A DNA stretch of 64,000 nucleotides from Candidatus Aenigmatarchaeota archaeon (GTDB lineage Archaea > Aenigmatarchaeota > Aenigmatarchaeia > CG10238-14 > SCSR01), in contig JAVZHQ010000001.1 of the NCBI GenBank assembly GCA_038998335.1, positions 512,001 to 576,000 on the forward strand, read 5' to 3'. Positions 382-56,223 of the stretch are shown here, in pieces (position 1 is the stretch's first letter; each line of letters begins with the position of its first letter). The position numbers and the translations under genes were made by a program. The notes beneath the pieces were generated by a model. It was given only the letters and a program-made list of their open reading frames with translations. It did not search any database and was not told the origin of the DNA.

Positions 382-1308
382 ATGGATTTTGAAGACCAGC
401 CTGAATTCGCTACTCGGCCTGAAACTTTTGAAAAAGGCCAGGATATTGAAAGTAGAGTTCTGTTTCTTGAAAGAAGAGTAGAAAGAATTCTTGCAGAACT
501 AGAAAAAATAAGAGAAAAGCCTAACGTTGAACAAATAATAGTAGATTTTCTTGAAGACTTAGAAAAAATCAAAAAAGAATGGAAAAAGGAAGAGGAAAAA
601 ATAAATTACATAAAAAGTTTTATGGAAGAGTTTGATAGGAAAGTTGAAGAAATAAGAAAAATTGACATAAAAGGTTTTGAAGAAAAAGTTGAAATGCTAA
701 ACCAAGCTTTAAAAAGGTTGGAGGAGCAAAAAAAGATGGTAGAAGGAGTATACGATACCATTTTTTCAGCAACAAAACCCTTAAACGAAAGAATAGCTGT
801 AGTAGAAAATGAAATCAAAAATTTAGAAGCAAAATCAGTTGGACTAAAAGAATTTGACCCTTCTAAAATAAGTGAATTGGAAAATAGAGTTAGCTCTTTA
901 GAAGATGATTTAAGAAGGCTTGGTTCAACGATCTCAACTTTACCAAACCAAGGAACAAGAGAATTTGAAGAAAGGATGGAAAGTATTGAAAGAAAAATTT
1001 CTAGCTTAGAGTTAAGCTTAACAAGTTTTAAACCAGTTGAGGTTAAAGAAGGTGTTACAACAACAGATGAAATAGCAAAAAACTTTTTGACTTTAAACTC
1101 GAGAATCGATGAGCTAGAGAAAAAAATAAAACTGCTTGAAGAAAGTTTTGATAGAAGTATGGAAGAAATTAAATCTTCGGTTCAAAAAAGTAAAGAAGCA
1201 AAAAAAGCTGAACTTTCTTCTGTTATAGAAGATATAACAAAAAAGATCTCTTCGATAGAAGAAAGGTTAGAAGCTAAGAAAAAAGTCAGCCCAATAGTTA
1301 TAGAGTAA
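382..1308 (+). CDS. Long coiled-coil hypothetical protein
   Basis: 308 aa, E/K-rich heptads. Confidence 0.7.
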   Translation: MDFEDQPEFATRPETFEKGQDIESRVLFLERRVERILAELEKIREKPNVEQIIVDFLEDLEKIKKEWKKEEEKINYIKSFMEEFDRKVEEIRKIDIKGFEEKVEMLNQALKRLEEQKKMVEGVYDTIFSATKPLNERIAVVENEIKNLEAKSVGLKEFDPSKISELENRVSSLEDDLRRLGSTISTLPNQGTREFEERMESIERKISSLELSLTSFKPVEVKEGVTTTDEIAKNFLTLNSRIDELEKKIKLLEESFDRSMEEIKSSVQKSKEAKKAELSSVIEDITKKISSIEERLEAKKKVSPIVIE

Positions 1309-1330
1309 AGTTTAAAAGCTTCTTCTCCCA

Positions 1331-1356
1331 TAATTATTATAATAATTATAATTATT
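1331..1356. promoter_or_regulatory. AT-only overlapping palindromes in the promoter of the 1369 gene/topA operon
   Basis: taattattataataatta (1331-1348) and aataattataattatt (1341-1356), followed by SD-like aaggtg. Confidence 0.5.
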
Positions 1357-1368
1357 AAGGTGAAAAGG

Positions 1369-1672
1369 ATGGAGAAAAAATTTGAGAGCAACTGGGAAAA
1401 GTATGAAATATTCCCCCTAGGCGGATAAGCCTTCCGCAATCTGGGCAGTTTGTGTGGGAATAGTTAAAGATAACCTAGGAATAAGAAAGTTAAGGATAGC
1501 CAAAGGTAAGATTAAAGGAAAAGTTTTCAGAGATGAGAAAGGAAAAATCAACTTTGAGTTATCAGACGAGAAAAATCCCATAACTCAAGTTAACAGGCTA
1601 AACATTAAAAGTTATGAAGAATGGGAAAAAATTAAAAGCTTGGTTGACAAGTGGATAAAAAAGCTTAAGTGA
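1369..1672 (+). CDS. Hypothetical 96-aa protein interrupted by a putative 13-nt BHB/BHL intron (exons 1369-1426 and 1440-1672)
   Basis: SD plus ATG at 1369; in-frame TAA at 1426-28; removing 1427-1439 gives MEKKFESNWEKYEIFPLGGFWAVCVGIVKDNLGIRK...; stop overlaps topA start (GTGA). Confidence 0.75.
1427..1439 (+). other. Putative mRNA micro-intron aagccttccgcaa
   Basis: cctag/ctggg outer helix, gcgg/ccgc 4-bp central helix, 3-nt bulge aa|t. Confidence 0.7.
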
Positions 1673-3750
1673 AGTTCATGGGCTACACTTTAATAATCGC
1701 TGAAAAGCCAGACGCAGCAAGAAGAATAGCCGAAGCTTTAGCTGATAAAAAGCCAAAAGTCGTTAAGAAAAGAGAAGTAGAGTATTACGAATTTACAGTT
1801 AACGGAAAAAAGCATGTTTGCGTTCCTGCTGTTGGCCATCTATTTACTCTTTCTCCTTTGTCTAAAAGTAAAAAATGGAACTACCCAATTTTTTCTTATG
1901 AATGGACTCCAACTTATACAAAAAAAGGAACCGAGTGGACAAGGAAATACTTTGAGAATATTGTGGATTTAGCAAAAGGTGCTGACGAGTTTATAGATGC
2001 TGCAGATGTTGACACAGAAGGAGAAGTTTTGCTTTACAATATTTTAAGATTCATTTGTAAGGTTAAAGATGCTAAAAGAATACAATTCTCAACTTTAACA
2101 AAAGATGAACTTGTTGAGGCATACAGAAATATGTCAAACCATATTCTTTTTCCAATGCTTGAAAGCGGTTTAACAAGGCATGAGCTTGATTGGCTATGGG
2201 GAATTAACTTAACTCGAGCTCTAACTCTTGCTCTAAAAAATCATGGCGCTAAAGCTTTTGCTATTCTATCAGCAGGAAGAGTTCAAAGCCCAACTTTAAA
2301 CCTTCTTTTGGAAAGAGAAATTGAAATAAGAAATTTTAAACCAAAACCTTTCTGGCAGCTCGAGCTAAGAGCAAAAGTTGACAATCAAGAAATAGTTGCG
2401 ATGCATGAAAAGGATAAATTTTGGAAGAAAGAAGAAGTTGATAAAGTTTTGAATGACTGTAAAGGAAAGGATGCTTTGGTAAAGGATGTGAAAAAAAGAG
2501 AATATAAACAAAAACCTCCTTTTCCTTTTAATACTACTGATTTGCAAGCAGAAGCTTATGCTTGCTTTAAGTTCTCTCCCACTCAAACCCTACAAATTGC
2601 TGAATCACTTTACCAGCAAGGTTTTATTTCTTACCCAAGATCTTCAAGCCAAAAATTGCCTCCAGTAATAAATTATGAAAAAATTTTGAAAGCTTTAGCA
2701 AGTTTAAAACCTTATGAAAAGTTTGCTAAGGAATTACTAGAAAAAGAAAAACTCATTCCTAATGAAGGTCCAAAAGAAGATCCTGCACACCCAGCAATTT
2801 ATGCTACTCATGAAATTCCAGAATTAAGCAAGCTGACTCCTCAACAAAGGAAGCTTTATGATCTAATTGTGAGAAGGACCTTAGCAACTTTTGCCGAAGA
2901 AGCTTTAAGGGAAAGTATAAACGCAATTTTGGCAATAGATGATAATAAATTCATAGCTGTAGGGAAAAGAACAATAAAGCCTGGATGGACAGAAATCTAC
3001 TCTCCTTATTTGACTTTTGAAGAACAAATCCTTCCTGAGCTTAAGGTTGGACAAACCGTTAAAGTTATTAAAATCAACTTGCTTTCAAAACAAACTCAAC
3101 CCCCTCCAAGGTATACTCAAGGAAGTATAATAAAAGAACTTGAAAAAAGAAATCTCGGGACAAAAGCAACTAGGGCAGAAATTTTGCAAACACTTTATGA
3201 TAGAAAGTATATTTTTGGGAAGAGCATTCAAGTTACAAAGCTTGGGGAAGTTGTTGCTAAAACTTTGAAGGAGTTTGTTCCAAGTATAGTTAGCGAAGAA
3301 TTAACAAGACATTTTGAAGAAGAAATGGAACAGGTTTTTAATGGAAAGAAAAAAAGAGAAGAGGTTGTAGAGGAAGCAAAAGAAGTTTTAAGCAAGATTT
3401 TGGAAGAATTTAAGAGCAAGGAAGAAAGAATTGGAAAAAAATTGCTCGAAGGTTTAACTCTTTCCAGACAAGAAGAAAGAAGACTTGGTATATGCCCAAA
3501 TTGCAAAGGCGAGCTAAGAATACTTTTTTCAAGAGCTAGTGGTAAGCGTTTTGTTGGTTGTTCAAACTATCCAAAATGCAAAACAGGCTTTCCTTTGCCT
3601 TTGGTTGGACAAATAACTTCTTTGAACAAAAACTGCGAAGTTTGTGGTTTGCCTATGATTCAAGTTTGGAGGAAAGGTAAAAGACCTTTTAGAATGTGTA
3701 TTAATCCTAACTGCAAAACAAAAGAAAGTTGGAATAAAAATAAAAGCTAA
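1669..3750 (+). CDS. topA: DNA topoisomerase IA (archaeal TopA) with C-terminal Zn ribbons
   Basis: IAEKP TOPRIM, DxDxEG, SAGRVQSPTL, ISYPR active-site Tyr, C-terminal C4 ribbons. Confidence 0.97.
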   Translation: MKFMGYTLIIAEKPDAARRIAEALADKKPKVVKKREVEYYEFTVNGKKHVCVPAVGHLFTLSPLSKSKKWNYPIFSYEWTPTYTKKGTEWTRKYFENIVDLAKGADEFIDAADVDTEGEVLLYNILRFICKVKDAKRIQFSTLTKDELVEAYRNMSNHILFPMLESGLTRHELDWLWGINLTRALTLALKNHGAKAFAILSAGRVQSPTLNLLLEREIEIRNFKPKPFWQLELRAKVDNQEIVAMHEKDKFWKKEEVDKVLNDCKGKDALVKDVKKREYKQKPPFPFNTTDLQAEAYACFKFSPTQTLQIAESLYQQGFISYPRSSSQKLPPVINYEKILKALASLKPYEKFAKELLEKEKLIPNEGPKEDPAHPAIYATHEIPELSKLTPQQRKLYDLIVRRTLATFAEEALRESINAILAIDDNKFIAVGKRTIKPGWTEIYSPYLTFEEQILPELKVGQTVKVIKINLLSKQTQPPPRYTQGSIIKELEKRNLGTKATRAEILQTLYDRKYIFGKSIQVTKLGEVVAKTLKEFVPSIVSEELTRHFEEEMEQVFNGKKKREEVVEEAKEVLSKILEEFKSKEERIGKKLLEGLTLSRQEERRLGICPNCKGELRILFSRASGKRFVGCSNYPKCKTGFPLPLVGQITSLNKNCEVCGLPMIQVWRKGKRPFRMCINPNCKTKESWNKNKS

Positions 3751-4280
3751 GGCTCAATCATTTCTCTCCTTCTCAAATCGTAAAGCATTCCTTGAAGAAT
3801 TCTATCAATATCCTCCGAAGAAAGTTTCACCGTTAGTTTTCGCTTAACTAATTTTCCAACTTTTTGTTTTGTTTTGTAAATTCCGTTGTATCCTCTATAA
3901 CCTCTGTGAGTTACTGGCACCATTCTTTTGACCAAGCTTTTAATTTCTTTTGCTGGACTTTTAAAAGAAAGAGCTGCTTTCATCACATAAAAAGCGATTT
4001 GGTTGCAAACATAAACTTTTTCCGGTTTATAATCGTGACTTTTGTTAAGAATTAATTCAAGGGTTTCTTTTCCGAGCAAACTCCAATAACCATTTCCATT
4101 CTTACATTTATTGTTTCCGTTAGGCTGATAATAAGCTATTCCTCGCCAGTCAAGCAGTTCAACATTATCAGTTTTTATTCCAACTCCAGCCCCTATAAGA
4201 TTAATTTTTCTTTTATGCTTGTCTGGTAAATTTAAAGTTTTAACGCTTTCGTCAACGTAAAGGTTTCCGTCCCAACTCAT
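3747..4280 (-). CDS. Hypothetical protein
   Basis: 177-aa ORF, no recognised motif. Confidence 0.55.
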   Translation of the reverse strand: MSWDGNLYVDESVKTLNLPDKHKRKINLIGAGVGIKTDNVELLDWRGIAYYQPNGNNKCKNGNGYWSLLGKETLELILNKSHDYKPEKVYVCNQIAFYVMKAALSFKSPAKEIKSLVKRMVPVTHRGYRGYNGIYKTKQKVGKLVKRKLTVKLSSEDIDRILQGMLYDLRRREMIEP

Positions 4281-55744: not shown

Positions 55745-55826
55745 GCCCCGATAGCATAGTGGTAATGCGCCCGCCTCGTATATTCAAGAAAGCGGGAGAT
55801 CGAGGGTTCGAATCCCTCTCGGGGCT
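55745..55826 (+). tRNA. tRNA-Thr(CGT) with 10-nt intron at 37/38 (55781-55790)
   Basis: gccccga/tcggggc acceptor, cccgc/gcggg anticodon stem, ttcgaat T-loop. Confidence 0.9.
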
Positions 55827-56137: not shown

Positions 56138-56223
56138 GCGCTGGTAGTCCAGCCTGGTTAAGACGCAGAACTTAGCGGAACCCTGCCACGGCTGAAACGC
56201 GGGTTCAAATCCCGCCCAGCGCA
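56138..56223 (+). tRNA. tRNA-Gly(GCC) with 12-nt intron at 29/30 (56169-56180)
   Basis: gcgctgg/ccagcgc acceptor; cagcc/ggctg stem restored after removing aacttagcggaa. Confidence 0.9.

What the first reader, a model, noticed from the sequence alone, without database searches (positions are those of the whole stretch)
1369..1672. Protein-coding gene split by a 13-nt tRNA-type micro-intron, coupled to topA
Seen: an SD-led ORF at 1369 stops after 19 codons, and a +1 frame continues to 1672. The junction is a GC-rich patch folding as cctag-gcgg-at|a-agcctt-ccgc-aa|t-ctggg: a 5-bp outer helix (one G-U), a 4-bp central helix and an exact 3-nt bulge. Cutting at the standard splicing-endonuclease positions removes 1427-1439, destroys the TAA and joins the frames as ...EIFPLGGFWAVCVGIVKD... 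(96 aa). The element is similar in size to the local 12-nt tRNA introns and, like them, ends in AA. Known: archaeal mRNA introns are rare, crenarchaeal cbf5 being the classic case. Inference: this is a new mRNA intron. Because the spliced ORF ends in a GTGA overlap with topA, splicing could also affect topA translation.
Basis: partly seen in the sequence, partly recalled or inferred. Interest (0 to 1): 0.9.

Follow-up and report, generated by a model that had tools for sequence, protein, structure and literature searches.

The report
13-base intron inside an archaeal protein gene
A small conserved protein gene of an uncultivated hot-spring archaeon (Aenigmatarchaeota) is broken by a 13-base insert that looks like the tiny introns of this organism's tRNA genes and is most likely cut out of the messenger RNA, which would make it one of very few spliced protein genes known in archaea and the shortest such intron.

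Summary
ATG 1369 opens a frame that stops at TAA 1426-1428 after 19 codons, and the +1 frame runs on to TGA 1670-1672. The junction folds as a 5-bp outer helix, a 4-bp helix, a 9-nt loop and a 3-nt bulge.

Uninterrupted homologues read ...PLGGFWAVCVG... with no extra residue (P0004, and 10 more with GG-x-W or ES-Y-W).

Further support:
- The insert stands at the same site in 7 DNA loci and is absent from 16.
- One helix pair covaries (C-G to U-A).
- Both exons are under purifying selection, each in its own frame.
- The genome's tRNA genes carry 10-12-nt introns of the same build.
- Its RtcB ligase gene, and those of relatives, carry 16-29-nt inserts whose cuts by the same rule restore the active-site motif. 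One of them is a textbook bulge-helix-bulge.
- EndA and RtcB are both present.

Best reading (about 0.8): a relaxed bulge-helix-bulge (bulge-helix-loop) mRNA micro-intron.

Not shown:
- Splicing on RNA. The one RNA run does not reach the junction.
- Any effect on topA.

The scan has noted BHB mini-introns in rtcB, proteasome and porA genes of other DPANN genomes before, but not in this gene.

The parts
1359..1363 (+). Shine-Dalgarno-like GGTGA, 5 nt before the start codon
   Evidence: read
1369..1426 (+). Exon 1: 19 codons (MEKKFESNWEKYEIFPLGG) plus the first base of the split Phe codon
   Evidence: Variable sites by codon position are 1/1/9 of 19 codons and pN/pS is 0.08 in this frame, against 1.31 or undefined (no synonymous changes) in the two other frames.
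1426..1428 (+). In-frame TAA that ends translation of unspliced RNA. It straddles the 5' cut (1426|1427).
1416..1420 (+). Outer helix, 5' strand (exon 1). Pairs with 1441-1445.
   Evidence: 7 of 7 sequences are paired, with one A-U to G-U change.
1421..1424 (+). Central 4-bp helix, 5' strand (exon 1). Pairs with 1434-1437.
   Evidence: Pair 1422/1436 is C-G in 2 sequences and U-A in 5.
1427..1439 (+). Putative 13-nt intron. It comprises the last 7 nt of the 9-nt loop, the 3' strand of the central helix (1434-1437) and the first two bulge bases (AA).
   Evidence: Its precise absence in homologues gives GGFW.
1438..1440 (+). 3-nt bulge (AAT) holding the 3' cut (1439|1440)
1441..1445 (+). Outer helix, 3' strand (exon 2)
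1440..1672 (+). Exon 2: last two bases of the Phe codon, 76 codons (WAVCVGIVKD...KKLK) and TGA
   Evidence: Variable sites are 13/10/52 of 76 codons and pN/pS is 0.10.
1409..1415 (+). Possible extension of the exon-exon helix. Pairs with 1456-1462 across a 10-nt internal loop.
   Evidence: RNAalifold. One pair is U-A in 5 sequences, C-G in 1 and U-G in 1. Weak.
1669..3750 (+). topA (DNA topoisomerase I, 693 aa from GTG 1669; an ATG follows at 1678). It overlaps the stop of exon 2 by 4 nt if GTG is the start.

Best explanation
Window 1427-1439 is a 13-nt intron of the archaeal endonuclease-spliced class, in its relaxed bulge-helix-loop form. It lies inside a conserved 96-codon gene of unknown function.

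Proposed mechanism, in the transcript:
1. Exon 1 and exon 2 pair with each other (1416-1420 with 1441-1445).
2. The end of exon 1 pairs with the intron's 3' part (1421-1424 with 1434-1437).
3. This presents a 3-nt bulge (1438-1440) and, four base pairs away on the other strand, the start of a 9-nt loop.
4. The single EndA of the genome would cut after the second base of the bulge and after the second base of the loop.
5. RtcB would join the exons.

The result would remove the TAA, build a Phe codon from T + TC and shift the reading by +1, so that the full protein (...PLGGFWAVCVG...) is made. Unspliced RNA yields only a 19-residue peptide.

Shown: the anatomy; conservation of the insert and its helices; precise absence in homologues; selection on both exons in different frames; the same kind of insert in tRNA genes and in rtcB of this lineage; presence of the two enzymes.

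Inferred: that cutting and joining happen on this RNA, and at exactly these bonds.
For: (1) Protein homologues. Of 23 homologous proteins (sequences):
- 11 are continuous and read GG-F/L/M-W (one reads ES-Y-W) with one residue where the window has the insert. P0004 is the closest and matches the predicted junction letter for letter.
- 6 are calls that begin inside the insert of an interrupted gene.
- 6 start further downstream and say nothing.
In a wider alignment of 41 proteins there is no gap column between GG and W. By motif, 34 of 41 have exactly one residue there and 7 do not fit my pattern.

(2) DNA. The insert is 13 nt long at the same site in 7 loci. These are all 6 genomes of the genus, own genome included, out of 371 genomes of the phylum searched, plus one metagenome contig. 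It is absent from 16 other loci.

(3) Structure across sequences. 63 of 63 cells pair. There is one compensatory pair (C-G in 2, U-A in 5) and one A-U to G-U change. The same paired changes at 1422 and 1436 stand in contigs of runs X2 and X3. The three variable insert positions all lie in the loop.

(4) Selection. Exon 1 has variable sites 1/1/9 by codon position and pN/pS 0.08. Exon 2 has 13/10/52 and 0.10. Off-frame readings give ratios above 1 or no synonymous changes. Sums are over 15 non-independent pairs of 6 sequences; L005 was left out for its 21-nt deletion.

(5) Cut rule checked in the same lineage.
- rtcB of the own genome carries an 18-nt in-frame insert with two TAA inside the motif that intact rtcB of G134 reads HFGYGFPIGGV.
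- Relatives carry 16, 19, 20, 20 and 29-nt inserts there.
- The 29-nt one is a canonical bulge-helix-bulge: two 3-nt bulges, a 4-bp helix and a 9-bp inner helix.
- Cutting after the second bulge base restores the motif in each.

(6) tRNA genes of this genome have 10-12-nt inserts. At least three fit outer helix, 4-bp helix, loop and AA|N bulge.

(7) Enzymes. One EndA (188 aa, best PDB relative the M. jannaschii homotetramer, E 1.5e-29) and RtcB.

(8) The tree of 33 rows needs 4 gains or losses of the insert. Insert-free DNA loci (L010, L011) are nested among insert-bearing proteins, and P0004 sits next to insert-bearing P0002. That means repeated precise loss or gain, as reported for cbf5 (PMC2738675, passages).
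Against: - No RNA evidence. The only RNA run found (X10) has contigs over 1504-1721 only, so it neither shows nor excludes the spliced form.
- The motif is not the strict bulge-helix-bulge. There is no inner helix, and the 5' cut would lie in a 9-nt loop. RNAfold and RNAalifold add a fifth pair (1425 with 1433), which would leave a 7-nt loop.
- The genome's EndA is of the single-subunit, alpha4-like size. The literature long held that this type cuts only strict motifs (PMC5829648, passages), although the same paper links loop-bearing alpha4 enzymes of DPANN with disrupted tRNA genes.
- Covariation rests on a single compensatory event among close relatives (29 of 500 shuffles reach the score).
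- A genome-wide search found no excess of frame-restoring motifs: 3839 at the true cut against 3795-3901 in shifted controls.
- The AF2 model puts the site in a beta-hairpin turn (residues 18-21), where a few extra residues from a frameshift product might be tolerated.
- Whether P0004 and other insert-free close relatives come from DNA or from RNA libraries is unknown to me.
Confidence: 0.8

Rival explanations
1. Programmed +1 ribosomal frameshift at GGA-TAA. The ribosome stalls at the stop, shifts by one base and reads on, giving a 100-residue protein with four extra residues (G-G-K-P-S-A-I-W).
For: The frames differ by +1 and a stop codon sits right at the shift site, as in known +1 sites (recalled: prfB). 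The hairpin could act as a stimulator. The site lies in a predicted hairpin turn, so an insertion might be tolerated.
Against: - The would-be extra residues are not conserved as protein: K/N, then P/L/F/S/C. The positions that are kept are those of the RNA helix.
- No continuous homologue has extra residues there.
- GGA in the P site cannot re-pair in the +1 frame (GAT).
- The same lineage has inserts of 16, 18, 19, 20 and 29 nt in rtcB. The 18-nt one has two in-frame TAA, which no frameshift can cure. One mechanism, excision, explains all of them.
Confidence: 0.08
2. The gene is broken or split. Either it is a decaying pseudogene, or it is two independent small ORFs (a 19-aa peptide and a 72-aa protein from GTG 1454), with no recoding.
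For: Gene callers split it this way: 72-aa and 83-aa calls P0001-P0003, P0005-P0009, P0014 and P0017.
Against: - Both parts show strong third-position bias and pN/pS of about 0.1, each in its own frame, across 6 genomes.
- The break is kept unchanged in length in 7 loci.
- The only indel in exon 1 is in frame (21 nt, L005).
- Residues between 1440 and 1453, upstream of GTG 1454, are conserved family-wide (W nearly invariant).
- I saw no Shine-Dalgarno-like motif before GTG 1454.
Confidence: 0.04
3. A DNA-level element. The 13 nt are a small mobile or hairpin insertion that is present or absent in DNA. The functional protein is made only by cells or strains lacking it.
For: Presence is patchy on the tree (4 changes). 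Aenigmatarchaeota carry small palindromic repeats according to earlier notes of this scan (unchecked).
Against: - In runs X1-X3 no contig joins across the insert, and the insert-bearing contig has the full depth (34 in X1).
- All 6 genomes of the genus carry it, and selection on both exons persists in the carriers. The carriers must therefore still make the protein.
Confidence: 0.04
4. Translational bypass (hopping) from the GGA take-off codon over the stop and hairpin, as in phage T4 gene 60.
For: A GGA codon followed by a stop inside a hairpin resembles the gene 60 take-off site (recalled, not tested).
Against: No matching landing codon lies in the right frame. Landing on TGG 1442-1444 would lose the Phe and the conserved Trp (reading). 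A Phe codon assembled from T + TC can only arise by joining nucleic acid. The insert-free homologues have that codon.
Confidence: 0.01

Closest known systems
cbf5 (pseudouridine synthase) pre-mRNA intron of Crenarchaeota (Watanabe 2002, recalled title; Yokobori 2009, PMC2738675, passages read)
   Same: Both are short introns inside a protein-coding gene with a bulge-helix-bulge-type motif, presumed to be cut by the tRNA splicing endonuclease. Both are patchy among relatives (gain and loss). Both were mis-annotated as a split or frameshifted gene.
   Different: - Different gene (a 96-aa protein of no known family) and different lineage (DPANN, Aenigmatarchaeota).
- 13 nt, against 16-44 bp reported for cbf5.
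- No inner helix.
- The genome has one alpha4-like EndA rather than the heterotetramer linked with cbf5 splicing.
- cbf5 splicing was shown on RNA; this one was not.
Relaxed (hBH / HBh' / bulge-helix-loop) mini-introns of archaeal tRNA genes, including those of this genome
   Same: Same build: exon-exon helix, 4-bp helix between exon and intron, 5' cut in a loop, 3-nt bulge with the 3' cut. Same size class (10-12 nt here) and the same AA at the intron's 3' end.
   Different: The host RNA is an mRNA. The outer helix is made of two coding stretches instead of an anticodon stem. There is no mature tRNA body to help recognition.
BHB intron in the 5' UTR of HVO_1309 mRNA of Haloferax volcanii (PMC7714728, passages read)
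   Same: An mRNA substrate of the archaeal splicing endonuclease.
   Different: That one lies in the UTR and does not interrupt the reading frame. It is cut by an alpha'2 enzyme at a strict motif, as shown in vitro.
Unconventional HAC1/XBP1 mRNA splicing in eukaryotes (recalled)
   Same: A very short intron is removed without a spliceosome, the exons are joined by a tRNA ligase (RtcB in animals), and removal shifts the reading frame.
   Different: The endonuclease is IRE1 acting on twin stem-loops, not EndA on a bulge-helix motif. It is stress-regulated, and no regulation is shown here.
Programmed +1 frameshift sites and T4 gene 60 bypass (recalled)
   Same: Two frames joined at a stop codon next to a hairpin.
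   Different: No slippery re-pairing, no conserved extra peptide and no in-frame landing codon. Homologues lack exactly the 13 nt.

Membership tests
Archaeal endonuclease-spliced introns, strict hBHBh' motif | Two 3-nt bulges on opposite strands separated by a 4-bp helix, each flanked by a further helix | tested here: not met
   The 3' bulge, the 4-bp helix and the outer helix are present. There is no inner helix. The 5' site lies in a 9-nt loop, or a 7-nt loop if 1425 pairs with 1433.
Archaeal endonuclease-spliced introns, relaxed bulge-helix-loop (BHL) form (as defined in PMC5829648, passage) | One intact 3-nt bulge, an adjacent 4-bp helix and a flanking helix, with the other cut site in a loop | tested here: met
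   Outer helix 5 of 5 pairs, central helix 4 of 4, bulge of 3 nt. All are kept in 7 of 7 sequences.
Archaeal endonuclease-spliced introns (either form) | Cuts after the second base of each bulge position give the functional mature sequence | tested here: met
   Removal of 1427-1439 gives GGFW, identical to insert-free P0004 and to DNA loci without the insert. Shifting the cut by one base either way would give GGIW or GGYW (reading). The rule itself is recalled. It was checked here on a canonical 29-nt rtcB intron and on tRNA introns.
Archaeal endonuclease-spliced introns (either form) | Splicing endonuclease and RNA ligase encoded by the organism | tested here: met
   PF01974: 1 match, 95 bits. 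PF01139: 1 match, 547 bits, itself interrupted by an 18-nt insert.
Archaeal endonuclease-spliced introns (either form) | An endonuclease type able to cut relaxed motifs | tested here: inconclusive
   A single 188-aa EndA, closest to the alpha4 enzyme 1a79. It has a 6-residue Lys-rich insertion between 'LYERG' and 'EH' relative to 1a79. Whether this is the L3 loop of PMC5829648 was not determined.
Archaeal endonuclease-spliced introns (either form) | Excision and exon joining seen on RNA | not testable with these tools
   One RNA run was found. Its contigs cover only 1504-1721.
cbf5 intron family | Intron located in the cbf5/TruB-type pseudouridine synthase gene | tested here: not met
   The host gene has no Pfam family and is a 96-aa protein.
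Programmed +1 frameshift sites | A shift-prone codon that can re-pair in the +1 frame, and a conserved protein sequence read through the site | tested here: not met
   GGA to GAT gives no re-pairing. The inserted residues vary freely, and continuous homologues lack them.

The most novel reading that the evidence does not exclude
The 13-nt element is the shortest spliced intron of any protein-coding gene, and it works as a gate. With a stop codon placed on the 5' cut, synthesis of the 96-aa protein depends on the cell's EndA/RtcB capacity. So, through the 4-nt stop/start overlap, would coupled translation of topoisomerase I. RtcB's own message needs the same splicing. Together these would form a splicing-dependent expression circuit in a reduced-genome archaeon. 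These introns would also spread to sites with a shared exon context (5' exon ending in AU, three sites at GGA T|T).
Probability: 0.15. Interest if true: 0.85.

Novelty: new member of a known kind. Interest (0 to 1): 0.68.

Why it matters
In the papers I could read, spliced protein-coding genes in archaea amount to one gene family, cbf5 of Crenarchaeota, plus one 5'-UTR intron in Haloferax (PMC2738675 and PMC7714728, passages).

A second, unrelated gene with a conserved intron would matter in four ways:
- It comes from a different superphylum whose endonuclease is of the simple single-subunit kind. That widens where mRNA splicing occurs.
- It lowers the known size limit from 16 to 13 nt.
- It shows that a bulge-helix-loop made purely of coding sequence can suffice.
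- It has a practical side. Such genes are annotated as fragments (72-aa and 83-aa calls here), so small interrupted genes in DPANN genomes are under-read.

Together with the interrupted rtcB genes seen in passing, it gives a concrete set of substrates for testing what a DPANN alpha4-type EndA can cut.

Tried and rejected
- RNA evidence. One run search gave a single RNA run (X10, share 0.08). Laid with three DNA runs, its 3 contigs cover 1504-1721 only, so it says nothing about the junction. Record 9 (1643-1721) bridges the end of the small ORF and the start of topA. A contig from an RNA library does not prove one transcript.
- Genome-wide search for more frame-restoring motifs found no excess over shifted-cut controls. 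With the strict filter there were 3 hits at the true cut, this one plus two that look like chance.
- A coding-potential scan for ORFs that lack a start was swamped by ordinary adjacent genes and was dropped.
- ARAGORN's intron placements were often implausible. I re-read five by hand. The 12-nt intron of the second tRNA in the window fits the template poorly: 3 of 4 central pairs and a weak outer helix.
- Function of the protein:
  - No Pfam family.
  - Foldseek found no match at E <= 0.001.
  - The best VIA-align Z was 4.8, among mixed PH/EVH1-like and other small beta folds. That is below the level at which a fold can be named.
- DNA for the second insert-bearing clade (P0009, P0014, P0017) was not returned by either collection scan. 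Its helix sequence is inferred from the protein calls only.
- The proteasome genes of this genome are uninterrupted.
- Four literature searches gave no paper on BHB introns in DPANN protein genes or on this family. I saw only listings and abstract starts of most hits.
- The additional file of PMC2738675 that lists intron lengths could not be opened, because supplements are closed.

Full report
**What is there**

The window lies in a 1.0-Mb, 9-contig genome (G000, contig C1 512001-576000; 90% complete). Its relatives are labelled Candidatus Aenigmatarchaeota. The runs that hold it are hot-spring metagenomes.

At 1369 an ATG preceded by GGTGA opens a frame that ends at TAA 1426-1428 after 19 codons. 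The +1 frame is open from 1421 to TGA 1670-1672. It overlaps GTG 1669 of a 693-aa topoisomerase I ORF.

RNAfold of 1405-1460 gives:
- outer helix 1416-1420/1441-1445,
- a 3-nt bulge 1438-1440,
- helix 1421-1425/1433-1437,
- a 7-nt loop.

**Is it more than chance?**

Not by folding energy: z is -0.96. Not by motif count either. Loose versions occur 2173 times and 71418 times. Removing them restores frames as often at shifted cuts (3795-3901) as at the true cut (3839).

The G+C-rich form is rare. There are 9 in the genome, and only this one restores a long frame. The real weight comes from comparison with other sequences.

**Homologues**

A search with the 83-aa downstream reading gave 23 proteins (sequences).
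- Eleven are continuous 96-113-aa proteins. They read GG-F/L/M-W (one reads ES-Y-W) where the window has the insert.
- Six are calls that begin inside an insert (M/V-D-N/K-x-S-x-I-W).
- Six begin downstream and are uninformative.

An exhaustive search with P0004 found only 34 cluster representatives at E <= 0.001. In the 41-row alignment no sequence has extra residues between GG and W.

**DNA of relatives**
- 8 of 371 genomes of the phylum hold the gene.
- All 6 of the genus carry a 13-nt insert at the same place. The other two lack it.
- Of 15 metagenome loci, one carries it and 14 do not.
- The genome-contig scan added one more locus without it.
- In all, 7 loci have the insert and 16 do not. 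Some are near-identical, and L007, L013 and L030 are one contig.

Across the seven carriers the length is constant. The three variable positions lie in the loop. The helices pair in 63 of 63 cells, with one compensatory pair (1422/1436: C-G in 2, U-A in 5) and one A-U to G-U change. This is a single event among kin (29 of 500 shuffles reach the score), so it supports the structure but is not strong alone. RNAalifold recovers the same structure without being told. It adds a possible outer extension 1409-1415/1456-1462 with a second covarying pair.

**Not an artefact, not a dead gene**

Logan's own assembly of run X1, which may be the source of this genome, matches 1000-2100 without a difference at depth 34. 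Contigs from two other studies (X2, X3) carry the insert in its U-A variant. No contig joins across it.

In six carriers (L005 left out for an in-frame 21-nt deletion in exon 1):
- Exon 1 varies at codon positions 1/1/9 and has pN/pS 0.08.
- Exon 2 varies at 13/10/52 and has pN/pS 0.10.
- In the other frames the ratios exceed 1, or there are no synonymous changes.

Two stretches under protein-level selection in different frames, separated by a conserved 13 nt, call for a recoding step.

**Which recoding step?**

The lineage answers this itself.

First, the tRNA genes of this genome carry 10-12-nt inserts. Read by hand, tRNA-Arg(UCG), tRNA-Thr(CGU) in the window and a 19-nt case fit the same template: anticodon stem, 4-bp helix, loop with the 5' cut, AA|A bulge. 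The 12-nt intron of tRNA-Gly(GCC) in the window fits less well.

Second, while checking for the ligase I found that rtcB of this genome is interrupted. It carries 18 nt with two in-frame TAA inside the motif that intact rtcB of G134 reads HFGYGFPIGGV.

Among 70 genomes of the family, 61 have an rtcB match. Many of those matches are split or hold stops. I looked at 17 loci plus the own gene:
- No insert at this site in G134 and G137.
- 18 nt in G000, G076 and G136.
- 29 nt in G087, 20 nt in G092 and 16 nt in G118.
- 20 nt in G124 and 19 nt in G125, four bases further on.
- About 30 nt after the His codon in G114 and G105, not resolved.

The 29-nt insert is a canonical bulge-helix-bulge. The 18- and 20-nt ones are shorter versions whose inner helix changes by a compensatory pair. 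In each, cutting after the second base of each bulge restores the motif. An 18-nt insert with two stops cannot be cured by frameshifting. Excision explains all cases, and the finding's element is the best-paired of the set (5/5 and 4/4).

The enzymes are present: one EndA of 188 aa and RtcB. All these inserts end in AA and follow an exon ending in AU, except in the tRNAs. Three sites (this gene, rtcB in G124/G125, and a second rtcB site in G136/G125) sit at GGA T|T.

**Rivals**

A +1 frameshift would add four residues that vary freely and are absent from every continuous homologue. GGA also cannot re-pair in the +1 frame. Bypassing cannot build the Phe codon. A pseudogene or a pair of small ORFs is contradicted by the selection pattern. 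A DNA-level polymorphism is contradicted by full-depth insert-bearing contigs and by carriers that keep both exons intact.

The weak points of the intron reading are these:
- There is no RNA evidence. Run X10 stops at 1504.
- There is no inner helix.
- The endonuclease is of alpha4-like size. Papers describe that type as strict, although loop-bearing alpha4 enzymes of DPANN are linked with disrupted tRNA genes (PMC5829648, passages). This EndA has a 6-residue Lys-rich insertion relative to 1a79, and I could not tell whether that is the loop in question.

**Evolution**

On a tree of 33 rows the insert needs 4 changes (bootstrap range 4-5; well-supported branches force at least 2). Insert-free P0004 sits beside insert-bearing P0002. 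Insert-free DNA loci L010 and L011 are nested among insert-bearing P0009, P0014 and P0017. The sequences are short and the tree is weak. Even so, the pattern is repeated precise gain or loss, as described for cbf5 (PMC2738675). I do not know whether P0004 was assembled from DNA or RNA.

**The gene and topA**

The protein has no Pfam family. AlphaFold gives a confident model (pLDDT 92.9) of five strands and a C-terminal helix, with the intron site in the first hairpin turn. No fold match is clear: Foldseek finds none at E <= 0.001, and the best VIA-align Z is 4.8. Its function is unknown.

topA follows directly in the genus and in L014 and L023, which lack the insert. It does not follow in at least nine other loci with over 1.4 kb of downstream flank. 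The intron is therefore not tied to topA. Coupling of topA translation to splicing is possible in this genus but untested.

**Comparison with what is known**

It works like the cbf5 intron and like relaxed tRNA mini-introns. It meets the bulge-helix-loop definition but not the strict motif.

In the papers I could read, cbf5 introns span 16-44 bp, and no other archaeal protein gene had confirmed splicing (PMC2738675). In 2020 cbf5 was still called the only example besides a Haloferax 5'-UTR intron (PMC7714728). My four searches listed nothing on DPANN protein-gene introns.

Earlier notes of this scan report BHB mini-introns in rtcB, proteasome-alpha and porA genes of other DPANN genomes, and a 12-nt tRNA intron in this genome. 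I found the rtcB case here before reading those notes. They agree with it.

**Verdict**

A real, conserved 13-nt interruption, most likely a spliced bulge-helix-loop intron (0.8). It is a new member of a rare known kind, notable for its size, its host gene and its lineage. RNA proof is still needed.

Noticed in passing
L033:1576-1593 (= G000 contig C1 about 120826-120843, outside the window): rtcB, the RNA-splicing ligase gene of this genome, is interrupted in frame by 18 nt holding two TAA. The insert lies inside the motif that intact rtcB of G134 reads HFGYGFPIGGV. It folds as a small bulge-helix-bulge: a 4-bp central helix with two G-U pairs and a 4-bp inner helix. The ligase message would need the ligase.
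   Followed up: yes
L046-L062 (rtcB of 17 relatives in the same GTDB family): Inserts of 16, 18, 19, 20, 20 and 29 nt sit at or 4 nt after the same rtcB site, and inserts of about 30 nt sit after the His codon in G114 and G105. A second break site lies near GGIGFDIN in G136, G125 and G118, with inserts of about 13-19 nt. G134 and G137 lack the first insert. In-frame TAG or TAA stops in G110, G111, G113, G100 and G091 were not examined.
   Followed up: partly
window 55745-55826 and 56138-56223: Two tRNA genes carry mini-introns. tRNA-Thr(CGU) has a 10-nt intron at 37/38, with one C.A mismatch in the central helix. A tRNA that I read as Gly(GCC) has a 12-nt intron at 29/30 in the anticodon stem, where ARAGORN called Gly(TCC). 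Both introns end in AA.
   Followed up: partly
window 1409-1415 with 1456-1462: RNAalifold extends the exon-exon helix by 7 pairs across a 10-nt internal loop. One pair covaries (U-A in 5 sequences, C-G in 1, U-G in 1), although both strands are coding.
   Followed up: no
window 1423-1441; L051, L052, L046: Shared exon context. The 5' exon ends in AU at all the mRNA sites seen. Three independent sites (this gene and two rtcB sites) split a Gly-Phe pair as GGA T|T. This could reflect the needs of the motif or an insertion preference.
   Followed up: no
L005:1468-1510 (G136): Exon 1 of the same gene has a 21-nt in-frame deletion (MQKSYEIIPLGG). The insert and exon 2 are intact.
   Followed up: no
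L024:1474-2040 (-): The only EndA found is 188 aa and closest to the M. jannaschii homotetramer (1a79). It has a 6-residue Lys-rich insertion between the LYERG and EH stretches. It may or may not be the DPANN 'L3' loop of PMC5829648.
   Followed up: partly
window 1211-1363: In runs X2 and X3 a relative's contig replaces these 151 bases, which span the end of the upstream coiled-coil gene and the spacer, with 152 other letters. The flanks still align.
   Followed up: no
G000 contig C1 653838-654731 (-): ARAGORN calls a tRNA-Leu(CAG) with an 800-nt intron. This is possibly a false call or a long-intron tRNA.
   Followed up: no
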